The position numbers were made by a program, and so were the translations under genes. This document shows positions 44,092 through 56,827 of a stretch of 64,000 bases of DNA, piece after piece (positions within the stretch are counted from its first letter, which is position 1; every line of letters begins with the position of its first letter). Origin of the DNA: Haliotis rufescens (Eukaryota); contig NW_025964334.1 in NCBI RefSeq assembly GCF_023055435.1, positions 31,000,001 to 31,064,000 on the forward strand, in the 5' to 3' direction. A model generated the notes under the pieces. That model searched no databases, had not been told where the DNA came from, and saw only the letters and a list, made by a program, of their open reading frames with translations.

Positions 44092-46908
44092 CCACGCTCT
44101 CACAAAGCCACCACCTGAAAACCAATGTCAAAACCGTTAAAGAGAAATTCTATATCGACCCTGTTTGGGAGCACATGTGTGGAGCCCCACCACCATGTCT
44201 TCAGCATGGCTCGCGAGTCGTGCTTTGTAATTCTAGTTCAATAAATACGTTTGGACATTAATTGTTATTGCACAAACTCACATTTTGAAGTCGCGGTGGC
44301 ATATTTCGTTACACTACAGTATTATCGAATGGCAGGTGTTGAACATGATAAATGTTCATGGACTTCAGTGAGGCGATCACTCGTACGATTCGTGATTTTA
44401 TGAAATTGTGGATCAATCGTTGCTAAAACGACACAGGAATGTGTCACATATGCAGCATCGTCAATAGTAGTAGTAATGTTTACAAAAGTACCATTTTGGT
44501 ACAACATATTCTCCATGATTTACACATTAACATAATTTTATATATACTATTATTTCAACTTATAAAAATGTATTTTAATCGTTTTATGATTGGTTGAATA
44601 ATATATCTACAAACAGAATTAATACATATCATCAATGATCATGATGCGATACATTTGCCAGGAATAAATAAGTGCTCGTTCTATAACCTACGATAAACAA
44701 TCGGAATTATTCCCTCGAACATTCACCATTCAGCGGTCGAAAAGTTTTCACACGCCTCTTATCGTGGCGAAGATGTAAAAGCTTTACCCACATGCACACT
44801 TTAATTAACCATGTTGAGCAACTCATATCGGAAGTAGAGTAAATGAACAGAATATTAATATACCTTTCAGATCAATTTTTCATTTCAGCGCTCCCTGTTT
44901 TTTCCCCAGCTACTGAGTATTTGTCACAATTTATCAATGGCTATTGTTAGCTTTCTGTGGGTATTCAATATATATTGAACCCCACTGGTTCCAGTCTATT
45001 GAGTATATTTACACCAGTCATTAGATATTTGTATAAATAATTCTTTATAATGATTTTTTTTCTTAAAATGCTGTTTCAGGTTACTTCTAATTTGTATCTG
45101 TTCCTGTGCAGTCCCAAGCGTGTACTCACAACAGCGATACACATGTCTAATAACAAAGCGAGTTCACGTATGTGTGATGCCTGTATAATTCGATCAATAG
45201 ATAAAGATCGGAAAAGAAATACAAGCCCGCAAACATTGGGTGATAACTCAGTGTTGTCATACTATTGTTTAATTTTTTTTTATTTCCTGATTAGTTGTAC
45301 GCAAGCAACTCACAATTAACTGGGAATGTATTTTATACACATACACAACTTATCTGGAGCTCTGTCATTGTCAATGGCAAATCATGAATGTAAACGCCCA
45401 GCCCTGGATATTGTGCAATGAATGTTCGACAGCTTGATTCCGGAGAGCTTCTGAGACAGATGTGATGTCTTTTTAGGCAAGTGATTTTGCAAGAAATATG
45501 CCTGTTTATCCAGCAGTGAATGGGTAGCCAGTAGGATGAGATGGTTATGGGACTGTTAAAATTTAAAATATAAATATGCACATTATATTATCGTTATTAT
45601 ACAGACGAACATAACCCTGTGGTGACCTCCGACCTTTTGAAAATATAATACGGACCAATGACCAAAAGAAAACAAACAAAAATACCTTTTTCTAAATAAA
45701 ATAATACATGGAGTGTATTATCATGTCACATACCTCACCCCCACATCCACCCGTACCCCGCCATTTAGGAAATCCTGTATCCGTCTATGATAAGACCACG
45801 TCGTGTTACTGGAATATTGCTATCGGTGTAAAAACAAACTCACACAAACCTAGGGGGTGGGTGGGGAGGGATTGGTGGGAAATGGTGTGTGTGTGTGTGT
45901 GTGTGTGTGTGGCGATGATTAGATACTTCTTTCAGTTACAGCTGCAAAACCAGCATATACAGTCTGAAGCAAAACTATATTTTTCAAGGATTATCGGGGA
46001 AAACTTATTTCTTTCGATTAATCACAATATAATCGGCAGGAACTATAAACTTTCTGTAACAAAAGACACACTGATCGGAGTATCGGTTTAGCAGGTCCGG
46101 ACTAGCGCGGTTTCAGTGTATATGGTAGCCCCACACCCGTCAACATATTCTATTTCCCTCGGAAAAACGGTAAATTAGTACAACATTTTAATACTTACAG
46201 CTGCTACACGGAATAGTACTTTAAACACGACCTTGAAAATTAATGAATCAACATTAATGAATAGGTCCATTTCCGCACAAAAAGTCAGACTTTACAATTT
46301 CCCATGCCATGTGTTTAACATGTCGATGTCCAATTTCAGGTCACAGGTGTCTATCATTCACGTAAACATGACAATCTGAGTTGCAATGCGGTGTGAAATA
46401 GCACAGCTCGAACCCACGATGAAGTCATGGCCATCCGCTATTGTATGTAACAATCAAACTACCGCCTACATTGTTAAACAATGTTGAATGTGTTTGTGAC
46501 TAGCACACTGCTCTGGATAACATCCACTCGGTGAGATGCGGCATGGATAATTCAGTGCCTCACGGGGAAAATAGTTCCTGTAGAGATGTAACAATTGGAT
46601 TAAGACGGGTCTACCTACCGGCATTTCGTTTGCACTGGCAACTGTATCGAGAATATTGTTATGAGTTAGCATCACGGACAGAGCGAACCAACGTTTCAAT
46701 GTCAGAGCTTCGGCAATGATGAGGCTCTAAAAGGATGGGTCATGCCACCGAGAATCACAATTTCGAGCAACCATAAACATTCCATGTAGAATTTGGTGTG
46801 ATATCTAAACCCTCATGCATTAAATGCGCTTATCAAACCTTTTTTCTGTTTACCTTATACATATTCAGGAATATATTTCCTTGAGTGAAAAGTCAATTAA
46901 TAATCAAT

Positions 46909-47473
46909 ATGACGACAGGGGACTCTGATATTGGCTTGGCGAATGGAGTGATGACTACATCTCCAGATGAACCGTCTTCACAAAGTAAAGAACCGATGCA
47001 ACCCTTCACTCCTGAAGACGAGATAGAGTCTGAAACATGTCTGCTGCAAGATCACGAAGACAAAGACAAGAAGATCATCCACCTTGATGAAGCCCTATCA
47101 CAAATTAAGTTTGGACTCTTCCACATAAAGATGCTGATTCTCGCTGGCGGTGGATATTTCGCCGTTTGTTCTGAAATTCTGGTGTTTGTTTTCCTCAGTG
47201 AACCCGTGAAGAAGGAATGGAATCTCAATCACTATGACTTTGCCTGGCTTCCTTTCTTCAGTGGAGTGTGTGGTATTGTCGGAGGTTATGTTTTTGGCGT
47301 GCTGAGCGACAGGATTGGACGCCAGATTCCCTTCATCGTGTCAATATCAGTGTGTTGTGTGTTTGGGGTGGCATCGGCATTTGCTCCTTCCTACATCCTC
47401 CTGGTGATACTGCGATCCCTCGTCTCTGTCGGGACTGGGGGACTGGAGTCCGTGGACTTTGTCCTGCTGCTGG
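46909..47473 (+). CDS. SVOP/SV2-like MFS transporter, coding exon 1
   Basis: Acceptor at 46868; LDEALSQIKFGLFH, MFS motif A GVLSDRIGR; donor G|GTCAGT in phase 1. Confidence 0.92.
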
Positions 47474-47493
47474 GTCAGTATGTAATAGTTATA

Positions 47494-47733
47494 GTGAGTG
47501 AGTGAGTGAGTTGAACGCCGCTTTGAACAGTATATCACTTATGCCGCCGTGTTAGCTTAATAAAGGAAAGCGCAAATGATGCAGGTCTTAGCGATTTATC
47601 ACTTTGTTGAAAGCACCGGCACTGGTATTAGCTAATAGCTGAGGAACTTAGGTATCATAACCAAGGCCAATCTGGGATTCGAACCCACTAACATCGGATC
47701 CTGGCATGCCTGGGGGACGCAACTATGCACAGT
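47494..47733 (-). mobile_element. SINE family A, diverged
   Basis: (GTGA)n tail and GGGATTCGAACCC. Confidence 0.75.
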
Positions 47734-47736
47734 TAT

Positions 47737-47977
47737 GTTTTTTGTTTGTTTGGTGTTTAACGCCGCACTCCGCAATATTCCAGCTATATGACAACGGTCT
47801 GTAAATAATCGAGTTTGGATTAGATAATCCAGTGATCGATCGATCTACGCAATTGGGATATGATGACATGCTTCAACCAAGCCTTACCACCCGATCCCGT
47901 TAGCCCCGACAAGCATAGTCACCTTTTACGGCAAGCATGGGTTGCTGAAGACCTATTCTAACTCAGATCTTCACGGG
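47737..47977 (-). mobile_element. Retroposon family B
   Basis: Minus strand CCCGTGAAGATCTGAGTTAGAATAGGTCTTC...GCGGCGTTAAAC. Confidence 0.87.
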
Positions 47978-48281
47978 ATATGGCCAGACGCATTCTCCAT
48001 CTCTTTTGACTACACTAATCATTGACACGCACAATACGGCAGATCAGATCCGAATGTGTGAGGTCCTTCTTTGTGGCGTTAACTGCCGTGATATTGCTGA
48101 ATGTGCCGGGAAAGCACACTCTTGTAAAAGGTTATATTTTGAAACCATTATGTTTGTGGGACCAGTTTATCACAGCCACACATTGAGATACTTTTATAGT
48201 CTAGTTGTGGAGTTATAACTATATAAATGTGTATCTCAATCGTCCTGTGGGGACTGTGTGATTACAATGAATTTAATGTTA

Positions 48282-48424
48282 GCCGCTTTTAGCAATATTC
48301 CAGCAACATCACGGCAGGGGACACCATGAATTGGCTTCACACATTGGACCCATGTGGGGAATCGAACCCAGGGCTTCGGCGAGTGGAGCGAACGCTTTAT
48401 CCACAAGGCTACCAAATCGCCGCC
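48282..48424 (-). mobile_element. SINE family C
   Basis: Matches 9580-9738; explains the N-terminus of ORF 48354. Confidence 0.8.
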
Positions 48425-48492
48425 TGTGATTACAAATGATGGTAATCATATGCTTTTCTTCTGCTTTCATCTTTTCTTGTTTTTGATTGCAG

Positions 48493-48774
48493 AATTTCTT
48501 CCAAAACGAAACCGAGGCTCTTACATGGTGTTCATTACATTCTGTGGTGCTCTCGGTGCTGTGGCTGCGGGGGGTTTTGCGTGGCTCATCCTGCCTCGCT
48601 TTGGATGGAGGTGGTTTGTCGGCGCATGTGCAGTTCCGTCCATAATCGTGTTTATTCTGAGATTCATCGTGCGAACAGAATCACCACGTTATCTCATGAT
48701 AAGCGGCCAGAAGGAAAAAGCAATGAAGGTTCTTAAGAATATAGCAACACAAAATAAAACGGAATTACCCGAAG
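48493..48774 (+). CDS. SVOP/SV2-like MFS transporter, coding exon 2
   Basis: TTGCAG| acceptor; EFLPKRNRG...GWRW...TESPRYL; donor AAG|GTAAGG; 282 nt, phase 1-1. Confidence 0.93.
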
Positions 48775-48957
48775 GTAAGGCATGTGACATATCTCCATAT
48801 AATTGAAATAAACTCAGCCCTAATTTTCTTTATTTTCAAATACTAGTATCCTGAACAGTGTATCTGATTTGGAAACCACAAAACTAAACTCATTAAAGTC
48901 CTATCTTAGTGCTCGCTACCGCTACACTTTGACCTGAGGACATCTCATTACAGGTCA

Positions 48958-49039
48958 ATTGTGTATATATCAACTTGGTCTCGTCGCTATATGGCTGAAA
49001 TAATGCCGATGTGACGTTAAATTTTAACTCACTCACTCA
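48958..49039 (+). mobile_element. Heavily 5'-truncated retroposon tail with 14-bp TSD
   Basis: TSD CTCATTACAGGTCA at 48944-48957 and 49040-49053; tail GATGTGACGTTAAA...(ACTC)n. Confidence 0.85.
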
Positions 49040-49253
49040 CTCATTACAGGTCACGTCAGAACGATCATTCATCCAACCAATCACAGCGTCGTCCATCAGA
49101 TGCTAAAGCTAAAGTCCCAATGTGTTTTCTAATCATAGGTTAACACCAGGCAATAAATGAAATGGCACACAACCTTTTTCAGAGGCGTAAATAAGTATTG
49201 TCCACAGGAAGATAAAATAAAACAGATGCTCGGAGTGTTTCAAAAACTCGACG

Positions 49254-50111
49254 AGAAGAATTTTATTTATTTTGAACACTTCAATATCAATATTGTAATG
49301 AAATTCCGTTTTCTTTAGTGAAGAACGAGGTGTGGAAGTCTACGGAAGCGTAGTAGGGCCACGGTGATTTTTTTGTCAAAGTATCTCCTACGTAGAACTT
49401 ATTATCTCCTACGCAGGACTTAGTATCTTCTACGTAGGACTTAGTATCTCCTACGTAGGACTTAATCAATGAGGCTTGAATAGAACACACTATATATCAG
49501 TACTAAGTCCTACGGAGATACTAAGTCCTACGTAGGAGATATAAAGTCCTACGTAGGAGATACTAAGTCCTACGTAGGAGATATAAAGTCCTACGTAAGA
49601 GATAGTAAGTCCTACGTAGGAGATAGTAATTCCTACGTGGGAGACAGTAAGAAGAAGAATTTAATTTATTTTGAACACTTCAATCTCAATATTGTAATGA
49701 AATTCCGTTTTCTTTAGTGAAGAACGAGGTGTGGAAGTCTATGGAAGCGTAGTAGGGCCACGCTGAATTTTTTGTCTAAGTATCTCCTACGTAGAACTTA
49801 TTATCTCCTACGCAGGACTTAGTATCTCCTACGTATGACTTCCTATCTCCTACGTAGGACTTAATCAATGAGGCTTGAATAGAACACGCTATATATCAGT
49901 ACTAAGTCCTACGGAGATACTAAGTCCTACGTAGGAGATATAAAGTCCTACGTAGGAGATACTAAGTCCTACGTAGGAGATAGTAAGTCCTACGTAGGAG
50001 ATTGTAAGTCCTACGTGGGAGACAGTAAGTCCTACGTAGGAGAAACTCAGTCCTACGTAGAAGATACTTAGACAAAAAACAATTTCACCGTGGCCCCACT
50101 ACGCCTCCGTA
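49254..50111. mobile_element. TA-flanked MITE with inverted arrays of a 21-bp unit, partly tandem-duplicated (period 399)
   Basis: TIR CGGA(A/G)GCGTAGT(A/G)GGGCCACGGTGA at 49343 and 49742, and inverted ending at 50109; unit AGTATCTCCTACGTAGGACTT. Confidence 0.88.
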
Positions 50112-50125
50112 GAAGTCAGAGTAAT

Positions 50126-50169
50126 ATACCTACCTACCTACCTACCTACCTACCTACCTACCTACCTAC
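50126..50169. repeat. (TACC)n microsatellite
   Basis: Read directly from sequence. Confidence 0.95.
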
Positions 50170-50225
50170 ATGTATCCTTTGATATGTTGACGCTATTATG
50201 GTAAGACACATGGTGTTTGTTTCAG

Positions 50226-50899
50226 GTGAAATAATCTGCCCAGTTTCTACCGTTCGCGGAAGAATACAAGACCTTTTTTCTCCCGAGCTCCGCAGAAGAA
50301 CACTGTTCATGAGCCTCATCTGGTTCTTCCAGTCCACCGGCTACTGGGGAGTCACCATCTACCTCCCAGAATACATGAACTCGCTGGGGGTGAATTCCTA
50401 CATGAACATGTTCACTATCTTTATAGGTGAACTACCAGGAATTGCCCTTGCAATGATCGTCATAGAAAGACACATGCTCGGAAGGATCAACAGTCTTAAA
50501 TTCTTCTCGTTCTTTACCGGGGCGTCGCTTCTTGTCTTTGCTTTCGTTCCCTTAGAAAGTATCAAAGCCGCGCTTGTTATTGTATGTTATTTCTTCATGG
50601 TGCCTATATACTCGATACTGAATGCATTTACCCCAGAAATATATCCCACAGATGTGCGGAGCACTGCCATGGCTTGGGCTAACATCGTCATTGAAATCCC
50701 GGGCTTGATTACTCCTTTTATCGGCGCCATGTTATTGTCGTCTGATATTGTCTGGCTATATCCGGTCACGTGGACCGCTTGCTTCCTGCTTCAGTTCATC
50801 TTCTGCTTCTTTGTGGGTGTGGAAACTGCAGGGGAGGAGCTGAATGACAGAAAAACTTGTGGGAAGCAGCCAGACAGTCACGTGTCCAGCACAGTGTAG
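50226..50899 (+). CDS. SVOP/SV2-like MFS transporter, coding exon 3
   Basis: TTTCAG| acceptor; six hydrophobic segments, PEIYPTDVRSTA, VETAG; spliced product 506 aa. Confidence 0.93.
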
Positions 50900-51944: not shown

Positions 51945-52135
51945 GTGGTAAGAGGCGACTAACGGGATCGGGTGGTCAGACTCGCTGACTTTGTTGACGC
52001 ATGTCATCGCATTCCAATTGCGTGGATCGATGCTCATGATGTCAGTCACTGGACTGTCTGGCCCAGACTCAATTATTTACAGACCGCCGTCATATAGCTG
52101 TAATATTGCTGAGTGCGGCTTTAAACAACAAACGA
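51945..52135 (+). mobile_element. Retroposon family B, 5'-truncated
   Basis: GTAAGAGGCGACTAACGGGATCGGG...TTAAACAACAAAC. Confidence 0.87.
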
Positions 52136-53350: not shown

Positions 53351-53562
53351 TTACTCTAGGGAGCAAAGAACTGAATGGCCATCACTCACCATTATCATTC
53401 CTGAAGTAATCAAAATTACTTGACAATTGATAGATGCCGTTTATTTCATTCATTCGTTTTGCATTCTCTTATGGGCATTACTCGCCAGCGGCCCCCCCCC
53501 CCCCCCCCCAAATAACACCAGACCGCCATTTCATGCATGGCACTGGTCCCTGATCAAATATA

Positions 53563-53701
53563 TACTGCTCAAAAGAAGATAAAGAACATCCGCTTGTTAA
53601 ATATGACGTTATTTAATCCGTCATACCATGATAGATTAACTACAGTCAGGTATAGTCATATAGAAAAATCGGGTGTTCTTTAACTTCTTTTGTGGGGAAT
53701 A
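53563..53701. mobile_element. Short Tc1-like MITE
   Basis: Imperfect TIRs CAAAAGAAG(A/T)TAAAGAACA(T/C)CCG. Confidence 0.55.
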
Positions 53702-54013
53702 GTAGACTGTGACCAGTATACCAGAGCTTGTTTAAACCATGGCGTCATACACCAGTCCTCCTGGCCCCTACTTACATTAAGTCAAATGACCCCATTTTTT
53801 AATTTAATCGGGGTCAGAGTAGGCCCCAATACTCCAAGTTAATTGTAATTATAAAAGCTGACTGATTTAATAATGTGTGATCTAGTTGATTGTTTCATCT
53901 TGCCCGGACGGCGTAGATCGTTGACCATGCTTTCATATTTCATCTCAAAATATCAGTTTTTAATAGCCAGTATTGAACATGACCATTTACGGGATATGAA
54001 AACTATTGTATTG

Positions 54014-54209
54014 CTTAGGAAGAGAATTTATGGATGTCAACTTCTTTATTATGAGGAACACAACGTTTCGGAGTATATGCTTACTCCTTCATCAGGCGAA
54101 GGAGTAAGGAGTAAGCATGTACTCCGATACATTGTGTTCCTCATAATAAAGAAGTTGACATCTATAAATTCTCTTCCGTATGTGTATCACTTCTAAATGC
54201 CTTTCAGAG
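54014..54209. mobile_element. Penelope-like element remnant (inverted pLTR-type fragment) with 12-bp TSD
   Basis: TSD ACTATTGTATTG at 54002-54013 and 54210-54221; inverted arms 54018-54090 and ~54107-54177; hammerhead core followed by AATAAA. Confidence 0.8.
54059..54098 (-). ncRNA. Minimal type I hammerhead ribozyme motif
   Basis: Minus strand CGC-CTGATGA-A-GGAGT-AAGCATAT-ACTCC-GAAA-CGTT-GTG. Confidence 0.7.
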
Positions 54210-55448
54210 ACTATTGTATTGGTTGATATACACCTAGATTATACATTTGTACTTGGACTTTTATATATGACTGCATTTATCTTCGTGGCATTAATTCAAT
54301 TGCTAATCAAAAAGTCCCACATGATGATGTCTTTGTCACTCTTCTTGAGTCCGCATTCGTTGCTTGCATGCATCCTACTCGACTTGGTGGATCGTTGATC
54401 CTGGCTTTCATGTTTCATCTCAAAATAGCAAGGTACTAAATTATGTTTCCTTGGTTTCATGGGCACTTGCGCTTGTATGAATTGTTTGTGAAACACCCGG
54501 CTTTGTTTATTATTCGTTTCTTAGATAATGAATTAATGACTTTTCCTTACCCTATTACCTTACCACTGGGTGTTTTTGTTTGATCTGGATCTCTGTTGAT
54601 ATCAGTTACCCAGCTGAAGTTGGTGTTTGTATATGCAGCGAACATTCATAATTGTATAACTTGGCGTTAGCCTTTAAACTCACTAATCTTTCTTATTTTT
54701 GCACTGACAAGTTTTTAATAGCCAGTTCAGTATTGAACATGACCATTTACGCGATATGAAAACTATTGCATTGGTTGATAATACACCGAGATTATATACA
54801 TTTGTACCTGGACTTTTTCATACGATTGCATTAATAATGGTGGCATTATTTCAATCGCAAATCAAAATATCCCAGATTCTGATGTCTTTGTAATTCTTCT
54901 TGGAGTCCGCATTCGTTGCTTGCATGCCATCGTACTCGACGACGGTGATCGATGTTCGTGTTATCAACCACTGGTTTGACTGGTCCAGTTCTGACTTAAC
55001 ATAGTATCGCTGTTTTAACCCTAACATACAGCTGTTCCTTTCCTTTGGGGAAACTGAAAGTATGCTATCTGTTCAGCTGTCAGGAATATTTGCACAGGCC
55101 CTGAAATTGTGGATCCGGAATCTCGCGGTCCTGTTTCTGATATGTCAGTCAAGTCCATTTTAGTATTTGAAGTGAGGATTTCCATTCCGACTTACGATTA
55201 TGACAACGTTTAAGAACTAATAGTCCTCTGTTTGATGAACGTTTTCAGGCATCAAATTAATCAACAGAAACTCGCCGCATTCATATATATTCAAATTGTC
55301 ATTGATGTCAATTTCCCAGTACCGTGTTTCAATGTGTGCAGCACAGTAATGTTTTATTGTTATGGTAGTTGTTTGACTTTCATTTTATGCTTTGGCATAT
55401 GAATAAAACCGATTTCTCAATATTCAAGATATCAACACCAGTCCACAA

Positions 55449-55754
55449 GACCCGTGAATATCCGGGTTAGAATAGGTCTTCAGCAACTAACGGGATCGGG
55501 TGTTCAGGGCCGCTGACATGGTTGATGATGTCAATAATGATGTCAATCACTGGATTGTCTGGTCCAGACTCGATTATTTACAGACCGCCGTCATATAGCT
55601 GAAATCTCGCTGAGTGCGGCGTTAAACAACAAACAAAAGCAATTGCGTGGATCGATGCTCATGATATCAATCACTGGATTGTCTGGCCCAGCCTCGATTA
55701 CTTACAGACCGCCGTCATGTAGCTGGTATATTGCTGGGTGCGGCGTTAAACAAA
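55449..55754 (+). mobile_element. Retroposon family B with duplicated 3' half and 10-bp TSD
   Basis: TSD CAGTCCACAA at 55439-55448 and 55755-55764; starts GACCCGTGAA. Confidence 0.88.
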
Positions 55755-56039: not shown

Positions 56040-56191
56040 CTGACTTGGTTGATGCATGTCATCATATCCCAATTGTGTGGATCGATGCTCATGATATCAA
56101 TCACCGGATTGTCTGGTCCAGACCCGATTATTAACAGACCGCCGTAATGTTGCTGAAATATTTTGAGTGCGGCGTTAAACAACAAACAAAC
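56040..56191 (+). mobile_element. Retroposon family B, 3' half
   Basis: CTGACTTGGTTGATGCATGTC...GGCGTTAAACAACAAAC. Confidence 0.85.
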
Positions 56192-56827
56192 AAGATCACT
56201 CTGTTTCCACATCATCAAAATATATATGCATATCTTCCCAAATCACACAACAGATATTTCGAATAATTTGTTTAAATAATGATATAGATATTTGTGTCAG
56301 AGAAAAAGAATGCTATCAAGATATGAAATCGGTATTGAAATGCATCTCGGTAGCGCCATGGATAATTACTGGAATATATTTTCCATGGCGCAAATTGTGA
56401 CGTCAACTTTGGGTATTAATTTTTAGAAATAACAGATAACTCGGTTAAGCTTTCTCTTTATTGGTGACAGAAAATGCCATTTGTAAATTGTAAATAAGTT
56501 AATATTCAAATATTTATTTATTCAAGTCTACAAGGTCAGTTTATCTAGAGAAGTAGCTCTTGAAAGCGTTAGGCTGTGCACAGGGTGTAGACCTTTTGAC
56601 CCAGAGTTGTGTTTACTCAGCCAAGGTCGACATCGTGCGCCTGGACCTGTCCAGAGGTGAAATGGTGAGATTCACTGGTGTACAGTAGCACATATGGAAT
56701 TTCAAAGAAATTCACAACATAATTACACGACACGGATTGTTCTACATGTTTCAACCATATACTCAGGGAGAAGTGATAACAGTTACTGTATTCTGACTAT
56801 GGTAACTGTAATCACTTCTCCCTGATT

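What the first reader, a model, noticed from the sequence alone, without database searches (positions are those of the whole stretch)
54002..54221. TSD-flanked Penelope-like insertion carrying a minimal hammerhead ribozyme, with an empty-site paralog 750 bp away
Seen: a 196-bp insert between 12-bp direct repeats (ACTATTGTATTG). The duplicated segment at ~54762-54773 has the uninterrupted site (ACTATTGCATTG), which defines the insertion exactly. The insert is a fold-back. Its minus arm reads CGC-CUGAUGA-A-GGAGU(AAGCAUAU)ACUCC-GAAA-CGUU-GUG...AAUAAA: intact core boxes, a 5-bp stem II, a palindromic ACGU stem III and a 3-bp stem I. The plus arm has lost CUGAUGA and has GATAC for GAAAC. Known: Penelope-like elements carry minimal type I hammerheads with palindromic stem III thought to act as dimers, and they often insert with inverted terminal fragments. 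An extra A after A9 is tolerated in a natural viroid hammerhead. Inference: a footprint of a recently active ribozyme-bearing retroelement family, with predicted cleavage after GUU at ~54062.
Basis: partly seen in the sequence, partly recalled or inferred. Interest (0 to 1): 0.7.

Follow-up and report, generated by a model that had tools for sequence, protein, structure and literature searches.

The report
Penelope stub ending at predicted promoter
This 200-base hairpin is a two-armed stub of a very common Penelope-type jumping gene with a predicted self-cutting RNA motif on one arm; it was likely copied from uncut RNA that began at the element's predicted promoter, and it is an ordinary, probably inactive insertion of a known kind.

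Summary
Observation confirmed: a 196-bp fold-back between 12-nt direct repeats, an empty paralog 760 bp away, and a minimal hammerhead on the minus arm. It is the 3' end (pLTR) of an endonuclease-bearing Penelope-like element. The genome holds 438 exact hammerhead cores, the motif follows RT and GIY-YIG coding fragments, and the long arm's tail encodes the ORF start. The layout is the family norm: 59 of 87 loci sampled without regard to their 5' ends are head-to-head, 49 of those have one short and one tailed end, and 36 have 8-14-nt duplications. The hammerhead covaries across sister families. Copies do not stop at the predicted cut (7 of 97, p=0.24); 38 of 97 stop 31-41 nt upstream, near a predicted TATA/initiator start, so templates were likely uncleaved. 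'Recently active' is not supported: no intact ORF was found, and the junctions also appear in runs under three other organism labels. The architecture and ribozyme are published, and this scan noted similar stubs in other genomes. New member of a known kind.

The parts
54002..54013 (+). Left target-site duplication (12 nt)
54014..54016 (+). Three filler bases between the duplication and the short end of the element
   Evidence: family short ends fall at 54017 in contig loose ends
54017..54100 (-). Short-ended pLTR arm (84 nt), from 39 nt upstream of the predicted cut (1 nt short of the predicted start site) to the short 3' end; no difference from the family majority in the 48 positions upstream of the anchor; G for the usual A in stem I
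54059..54098 (-). Minimal type I hammerhead: stem I CGC/GUG, CUGAUGA (54095-54089), extra A, 5-bp stem II, GAAA, palindromic ACGU, predicted cut between 54062 and 54061
   Evidence: cleavage not tested
54098..54112 (+). Head-to-head junction: GAA microhomology (54098-54100) and a 7-nt tandem duplication
   Evidence: sequence
54098..54212 (+). Long-ended pLTR arm, starting 29 nt upstream of the cut site (no CUGAUGA), with 6 substitutions in 54106-54212
54178..54212 (+). PLE tail (~33-35 nt), present on this arm only; holds the ORF start codon at 54197 and the first five codons (MPFRD; family MPFKD)
   Evidence: two-class 3' ends; family copies L261 and L287 run on as MPFKDLIRHQ(H/Y)GD, like the N-terminus of P0001
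54210..54221 (+). Right target-site duplication; its first 2-3 nt are also the element's end
54710..54950 (+). Paralogous segment with the empty site at 54762-54773

Best explanation
The insert is a head-to-head pair of 5'-truncated pLTR copies of an endonuclease-bearing Penelope-like retrotransposon, likely made in one event when both strands of a staggered cut primed reverse transcription on uncleaved pLTR RNA that probably began at the element's predicted promoter. Shown: family identity, link to RT and GIY-YIG coding DNA, one short plus one tailed end, 8-14-nt duplications, 5' ends piling 31-46 nt upstream of the cut site, and arms of one insertion usually sharing the same subfamily variant. 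Inferred: a short transcript starts at a TATA/initiator about 40 nt upstream of the cut site. The protein nicks both strands 9-12 nt apart. One 3' end starts at the short internal site and the other at the long (tail) site. The cDNAs run off at or near the RNA 5' end (about 85 and 115 nt long) and join by microhomology (GAA here), and repair fills the gaps. The hammerhead is a selected family feature, predicted to cut only as a dimer or with protein help, but in this copy it is a passenger that the fold-back would bury.
For: Family size: 438 exact 33-nt cores, control 0; 1473 exact 29-mers. Linkage: 19 of 30 endonuclease loci and 12 of 30 RT loci have the arm downstream in sense; RVT_1 E=1e-5; 21 homologs of 764-993 aa with RVT_1, 3 also with GIY-YIG PF01541. 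Two end classes: 60 short, 44 long, 12 other of 116 ends. Sample not chosen by 5' content: 59 of 87 loci head-to-head, 49 of 59 short+long, 36 of 59 with 8-14-nt repeats against 1 of 59 in a shifted control. 5' ends: 38 of 97 at +31..+41 (about 8 times the background hazard, p about 1e-16), 13 of 97 beyond +46, 73 of 97 cross the cut by 7 nt or more. TATATAT begins 28 nt before a TCATTC initiator-like motif, and two sister families keep a like spacing with different intervening sequence. Arms agree at a two-state site in 35 of 41 raw rows, and in 32 of 36 after dropping 5 rows. In vitro, an anole PLE nicks and extends both strands from two internal start sites that bound the tail and uses unprocessed RNA (PMC11167929).
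Against: No RNA data fix the start site. The pile-up could also reflect a microhomology hot spot (the imperfect palindrome around CUGAUGA) or RT stalling. Fifteen of 59 pairs have both arms ending before +31 and 7 have an arm beyond +48, so other templates or resection occur. Ten of 59 pairs are not short+long, and 23 of 59 show no duplication. Four of 36 pairs disagree at the two-state site, and two of the five rows I dropped were also discordant. A weak excess at the cut cannot be excluded: 10 of 118 arms lie within 2 nt, p=0.11, and one pair (L185) has both arms ending there. The sample covers only contig C1 and the start of C2 and only copies with an exact 29-mer. The D. virilis Penelope promoter was reported as TATA-less and internal (PMC2377424).
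Confidence: 0.62

Rival explanations
1. Same element, but the inverted arm arises by self-priming: one cDNA or an antisense RNA folds back at the palindrome near the hammerhead and copies itself.
For: Proposed for rotifer Penelopes with palindromes at the inverted junction (PMC3846280). Here the junction is a short hairpin (8-bp arms, 7-nt loop), and arms share variants.
Against: The loop belongs to the short-ended arm, which lacks the tail, so copying it could not give the tailed arm. 49 of 59 pairs have unequal ends, and either arm can be the longer at its 5' side (32 against 17).
Confidence: 0.15
2. Twin priming as above, but the 5' ends pile up because of a microhomology hot spot or RT stalling at the folded hammerhead, on longer read-through RNA, not at a transcription start.
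For: Ten of 100 ends sit at exactly +33, most of them where the partner arm supplies a TGA overlap; the region is an imperfect palindrome.
Against: Some copies with unrelated DNA directly upstream also end at +33..+46. Hazard returns to background beyond +46 (0.017 against 0.012). Several truncated sister-family copies end near their own initiator-like motif (sample biased to complete cores, not counted).
Confidence: 0.15
3. A self-standing, recently active ribozyme mini-element (retrozyme-like) whose unit is the hairpin and whose RNA ends are set by hammerhead cleavage.
For: The core covaries across families, a few short tandem arrays exist, and non-LTR retrozymes are reported as PLE derivatives (bioRxiv 10.64898/2026.07.22.740005).
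Against: Sizes run from 71 to 720 bp with varied junctions, so the hairpin is rebuilt at each insertion. No pile-up at the cut. The junctions are shared among organism labels.
Confidence: 0.05

Closest known systems
Endonuclease-positive Penelope-like elements with an inverted pLTR and a one-sided 30-40-bp tail (PMC3846280, PMC8557442; passages read)
   Same: Inverted 5'-truncated pLTR, tail at one end, 8-10-bp duplications, ORF start inside the pLTR or tail, TATA plus initiator-like motif in the pLTR.
   Different: Here nothing lies between the two arms. The stub (median 182 bp among 59 pairs) is the commonest form in the sample, and no intact ORF was found.
Minimal hammerheads (min-HHR) of metazoan PLE pLTRs (PMC4209133; parts 1-2 of 4 read)
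   Same: Type I core, nucleotide between 9 and 10.1, G10.1-C11.1 pair, palindromic 15.2-16.2 without loop 3, C3-G8 and U3-A8 variants, motifs close together on opposite strands.
   Different: Stem II is 5 bp and stem I 3 bp, shorter than the 7-8 and 4-5 bp given for Schistosoma. The family itself was not seen in the text read (supplements not seen).
Poseidon of Anolis carolinensis, PAc (PMC11167929; parts 1-2 of 4 read)
   Same: Two internal RT start sites bounding the tail, nicking and extension of both strands, uncleaved RNA as the main template.
   Different: In PAc the ORF starts at stem II of the hammerhead; here it starts about 60 nt past the cut site, inside the tail. The parts read do not describe 5' ends piling at a transcription start.

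Membership tests
Endonuclease-positive Penelope-like element | RT domain upstream of the pLTR, same strand | tested here: met
   L096 417-aa stretch: RVT_1 E=1e-5, below the gathering score; weak match to telomerase RT, E=0.046; arm downstream in 12 of 30 RT loci. L096 itself has no arm.
Endonuclease-positive Penelope-like element | C-terminal GIY-YIG endonuclease with CCHH motif | tested here: met
   The motifs are visible in translation. Pfam did not hit the family's own copies, but L070 aligns at E=1e-12 with the GIY-YIG region of P0015. The CCHH reading is by eye.
Endonuclease-positive Penelope-like element | pLTR = 3' UTR plus ORF start; optional 30-40-bp tail | tested here: met
   60 short and 44 long of 116 ends; the tail runs on into the ORF N-terminus in L261 and L287
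Endonuclease-positive Penelope-like element | Inverted 5'-truncated copy and short target duplication | tested here: met
   59 of 87 loci; duplications in 36 of 59, control 1 of 59
Penelope/Poseidon clade | Phylogenetic placement; no Zn-finger-like linker between RT and endonuclease | tested here: inconclusive
   The linker has no cysteine motif by eye; no tree was built
Minimal type I hammerhead | Core boxes, 9/10.1 bulge, G10.1-C11.1 pair, palindromic 15.2-16.2 | tested here: met
   G-C, G-C and GAAACGU were imposed by the search pattern
Minimal type I hammerhead | Covariation of stems and of the 3-8 core pair | tested here: met
   23 distinct rows, 89.9% of cells paired, 5 of 9 pairs changed on both sides (C3-G8/U3-A8, two stem II pairs, two stem I pairs); 0 of 500 shuffles reach the score, but 315 of 500 reach the pair count, and the rows come from about three families, so there are few independent events
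Minimal type I hammerhead | Self-cleavage as a dimer or with protein | not testable with these tools
   Needs a bench assay; genomic 5' ends show no significant excess at the cut
Non-LTR retrozyme | Tandem units, each with a complete hammerhead | tested here: not met
   This insert has one complete motif and an inverted partner

The most novel reading that the evidence does not exclude
The thousands of ~180-bp Penelope palindromes in this genome are twin-primed run-off copies of a short, uncleaved transcript from a TATA/initiator promoter in the pLTR. The stubs would then map the element's transcription start and both RT start sites in vivo, and show that the conserved hammerhead mostly does not cut the RNA used for insertion.
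Probability: 0.55. Interest if true: 0.5.

Novelty: new member of a known kind. Interest (0 to 1): 0.3.

Why it matters
The single insertion matters little: it is one of more than a thousand stubs and is probably inert. The family statistics bear on an open question, how Penelope-like elements build their inverted ends and what their hammerhead does. Here the insertions record two fixed 3' starts, a 5' boundary at a predicted promoter and no clear stop at the ribozyme cut. This fits the one in vitro system and gives a direct test by 5' RACE or a promoter shift.

Tried and rejected
Rfam scan: no hammerhead hit among 12 weak matches; the motif lacks a full stem III. One search covered the wrong stretch of L088 and was discarded. 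One search had one row on the wrong strand and was redone. The tail count was off by one base and was redone. Pfam did not recognise the family's own endonuclease pieces. Search for a full-length source: the N-terminal protein search returned mostly sister families, and 29 loci from the junction pattern gave at most about 20 codons of ORF start and no intact element; only top candidates are scored, so this does not show absence. Expression: no RNA holder listed; one small-RNA run laid 0 reads, which is no test; contig runs guessed as RNA were not used as evidence. Empty allele: no joint skipping the insert among the rows shown (tables cut); runs X11, X13 and X17 were uninformative. The joint 54013 to 54347 in three runs is best read as the paralog. 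Cleavage recorded in 5' ends: tested and not found. A splice acceptor near +45 as the cause of the 5' boundary: set aside because many copies read GG rather than AG there and only 3 of 97 ends lie at +42..+46. Literature searches returned no paper whose listing or read passages state twin priming for PLEs or 5' ends at the start site; subscription papers and supplements were not seen.

Full report
Observation. The sequence is as described. The 12-mer ACTATTGTATTG flanks 196 nt (54002-54013, 54210-54221), and a paralogous segment 760 bp away has the site once (54762-54773). Its flanks match at 57 of 59 and 145 of 171 columns. The insert folds back with 72-nt arms at 94% (z = -17.9). The hammerhead core pattern occurs once in the window against 0.03 by chance; Rfam does not detect it. 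The insert lies about 3 kb downstream of the last coding exon of an MFS transporter gene.

Family. The minus arm has 52 matches among 40 scored of 235 candidates. Exact counts are 438 for the 33-nt core and 1473 for a 29-mer downstream of the cut, controls 0. Walking upstream through longer copies led to an endonuclease ORF end. The arm lies downstream, in sense, in 19 of 30 loci picked by endonuclease DNA (one is the query's own, 4 are partial) and in 12 of 30 picked by RT DNA. A 417-aa open stretch in L096 hits RVT_1 at 1e-5. Its 21 homologs are 764-993-aa RT proteins, three with a GIY-YIG domain, and the named ones are from gastropods. The family's endonuclease aligns with such a GIY-YIG region at 1e-12. 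All ORF pieces seen carry stops, frameshifts or truncations.

Ends and polarity. Of 116 3' ends in non-redundant loci, 60 are short, 44 are long (about 33 nt further) and 12 lie elsewhere (16 redundant loci dropped). The extra piece is the published PLE tail (PMC8557442 and PMC3846280, passages). It holds the start codon: copies L261 and L287 run on as MPFKDLIRHQ(H/Y)GD, like the N-terminus of homolog P0001. In the window the minus arm has the short end (54017, after 3 filler bases) and the plus arm the long end (54211-54212). The first 2-3 nt of the right repeat are therefore shared with the element, and the duplication is 9-12 nt. The arms meet at a GAA microhomology followed by a 7-nt duplication; the plus arm begins past CUGAUGA.

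A sample not chosen by 5' content. I took the first 100 listed copies of the downstream 29-mer (contig C1 and the start of C2). Of 87 non-redundant loci (90 fetched, 3 dropped as overlaps or duplicates), 59 are head-to-head, 49 of those have one short and one long end, and 36 have an 8-14-nt duplication against 1 in a shifted control. Median size is 182 bp. At a two-state A/T site the arms agree in 35 of 41 raw rows; dropping 3 repeated rows and 2 non-adjacent pairings (both discordant) gives 32 of 36, p about 1.5e-6. This set includes loci from earlier searches. So the window's insert is the family's usual form, and both arms usually come from one subfamily.

Where copies begin. With 3 repeats dropped (n=97), 7 5' ends lie within 2 nt of the predicted cut (p=0.24), 73 cross it by 7 nt or more, 38 lie at +31..+41 (about 8 times background) and 13 pass +46. 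In the 118 arms of the pairs, 10 lie at the cut (p=0.11) and 48 at +31..+46. A TATATAT begins at +68 and an initiator-like TCATTC has its A at +40, a spacing of 28 (the initiator consensus is recalled). Two sister families show a TATATATA box and an initiator-like motif at about the same spacing with unrelated sequence between (by eye). A like TATA/initiator pair is described in a rotifer pLTR (PMC3846280), whereas the D. virilis promoter was reported TATA-less (PMC2377424, passages). The window's short arm reaches +39.

The ribozyme. A generic minimal-hammerhead pattern has 3936 matches, control 0. Across 23 distinct rows from about three families, 5 of 9 pairs change on both sides, including C3-G8 to U3-A8, so the fold is under selection at family level, though independent events are few. 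The extra base after A9, the palindromic stem III and low dimer-only activity are published traits (PMC4209133, parts 1-2 of 4). The window's stem I has G where 29 of 30 sampled copies have A, a G-U pair in place of A-U. In the whole insert stem II is predicted not to form. In the anole element the hammerhead cuts only with protein, its mutants still insert, both strands are nicked and extended, and two internal start sites bound the tail (PMC11167929, parts 1-2 of 4).

Age. The short arm matches the family majority over the 48 positions compared; the long arm has 6 substitutions in 107 nt. Contigs running from the flank into the insert occur in runs labelled organism A (X8), C (X16), E (X19) and F (X20). 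Only X19's left junction meets the tool's 31-letter rule; the right-junction contigs enter the insert by 27-30 letters. Of the other 4 runs laid, 3 were uninformative and 1 laid no reads. The labels may be close relatives or hybrids. The insertion is younger than the local duplication but is not shown to be recent or polymorphic.

Mechanism. Best supported: twin priming at a staggered cut on uncleaved pLTR RNA, with run-off at or near a promoter-defined 5' end and joining by microhomology (confidence about 0.6). The family statistics are shown; the promoter, the two-nick priming and the joining step are inferred. Rivals are self-priming, a microhomology or stalling hot spot, and an independent ribozyme mini-element.

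Novelty. The architecture and the motif are in print. My searches found no paper stating twin priming for PLEs or 5' ends at the start site; of bioRxiv 10.64898/2026.07.22.740005 I read part 1 of 5. Earlier notes of this scan propose twin priming in other genomes and gave me the leads for the 5'-end and arm-concordance tests. Two of them report stops at the cut, which this family does not show, and one reports stops at a promoter, which it does. Verdict: new member of a known kind, interest 0.3.

Noticed in passing
window 53561-53701: 47-nt inverted arms (79%) with TA at the outer ends; resembles a small Tc1/mariner-type MITE (label recalled, not tested).
   Followed up: no
window 52015-52128, 55516-55629, 55640-55753, 56070-56183 and 56961 onward: At least five copies of an abundant SINE-like repeat; the same repeat recurs in many fetched loci.
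   Followed up: no
window 56763-56825: 31-nt arms with a 1-nt loop, 87% complementary; only weak microRNA-precursor matches in Rfam, far below the gathering scores.
   Followed up: no
window 46885-50899 (+): Exons of an MFS/sugar-transporter-family gene ending about 3 kb upstream of the insert.
   Followed up: partly
L231-L260 and L121-L140: At least two further abundant PLE families in the genome with U3-A8 minimal hammerheads, the same tail-with-start-codon layout and similar TATA/initiator spacing; 3936 generic matches in all.
   Followed up: partly
G000 C1:5865725-5865923, C335:182541-183521, L173, L287: Short tandem arrays (units of about 83-123 bp, and about 495-bp blocks) of the hammerhead-bearing end, retrozyme-like in layout; L287 units carry about 20 codons of the ORF start.
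   Followed up: no
L003-L006, L024: One stub sits beside each copy of a tandemly amplified sulfatase-like gene (spacing 8-15 kb; label read from the translation), so it was copied with the segment.
   Followed up: no
window 53965: Runs of organisms A, C, E and F carry 5 extra bases here that the window lacks, where the paralog also has a 5-nt excess.
   Followed up: no
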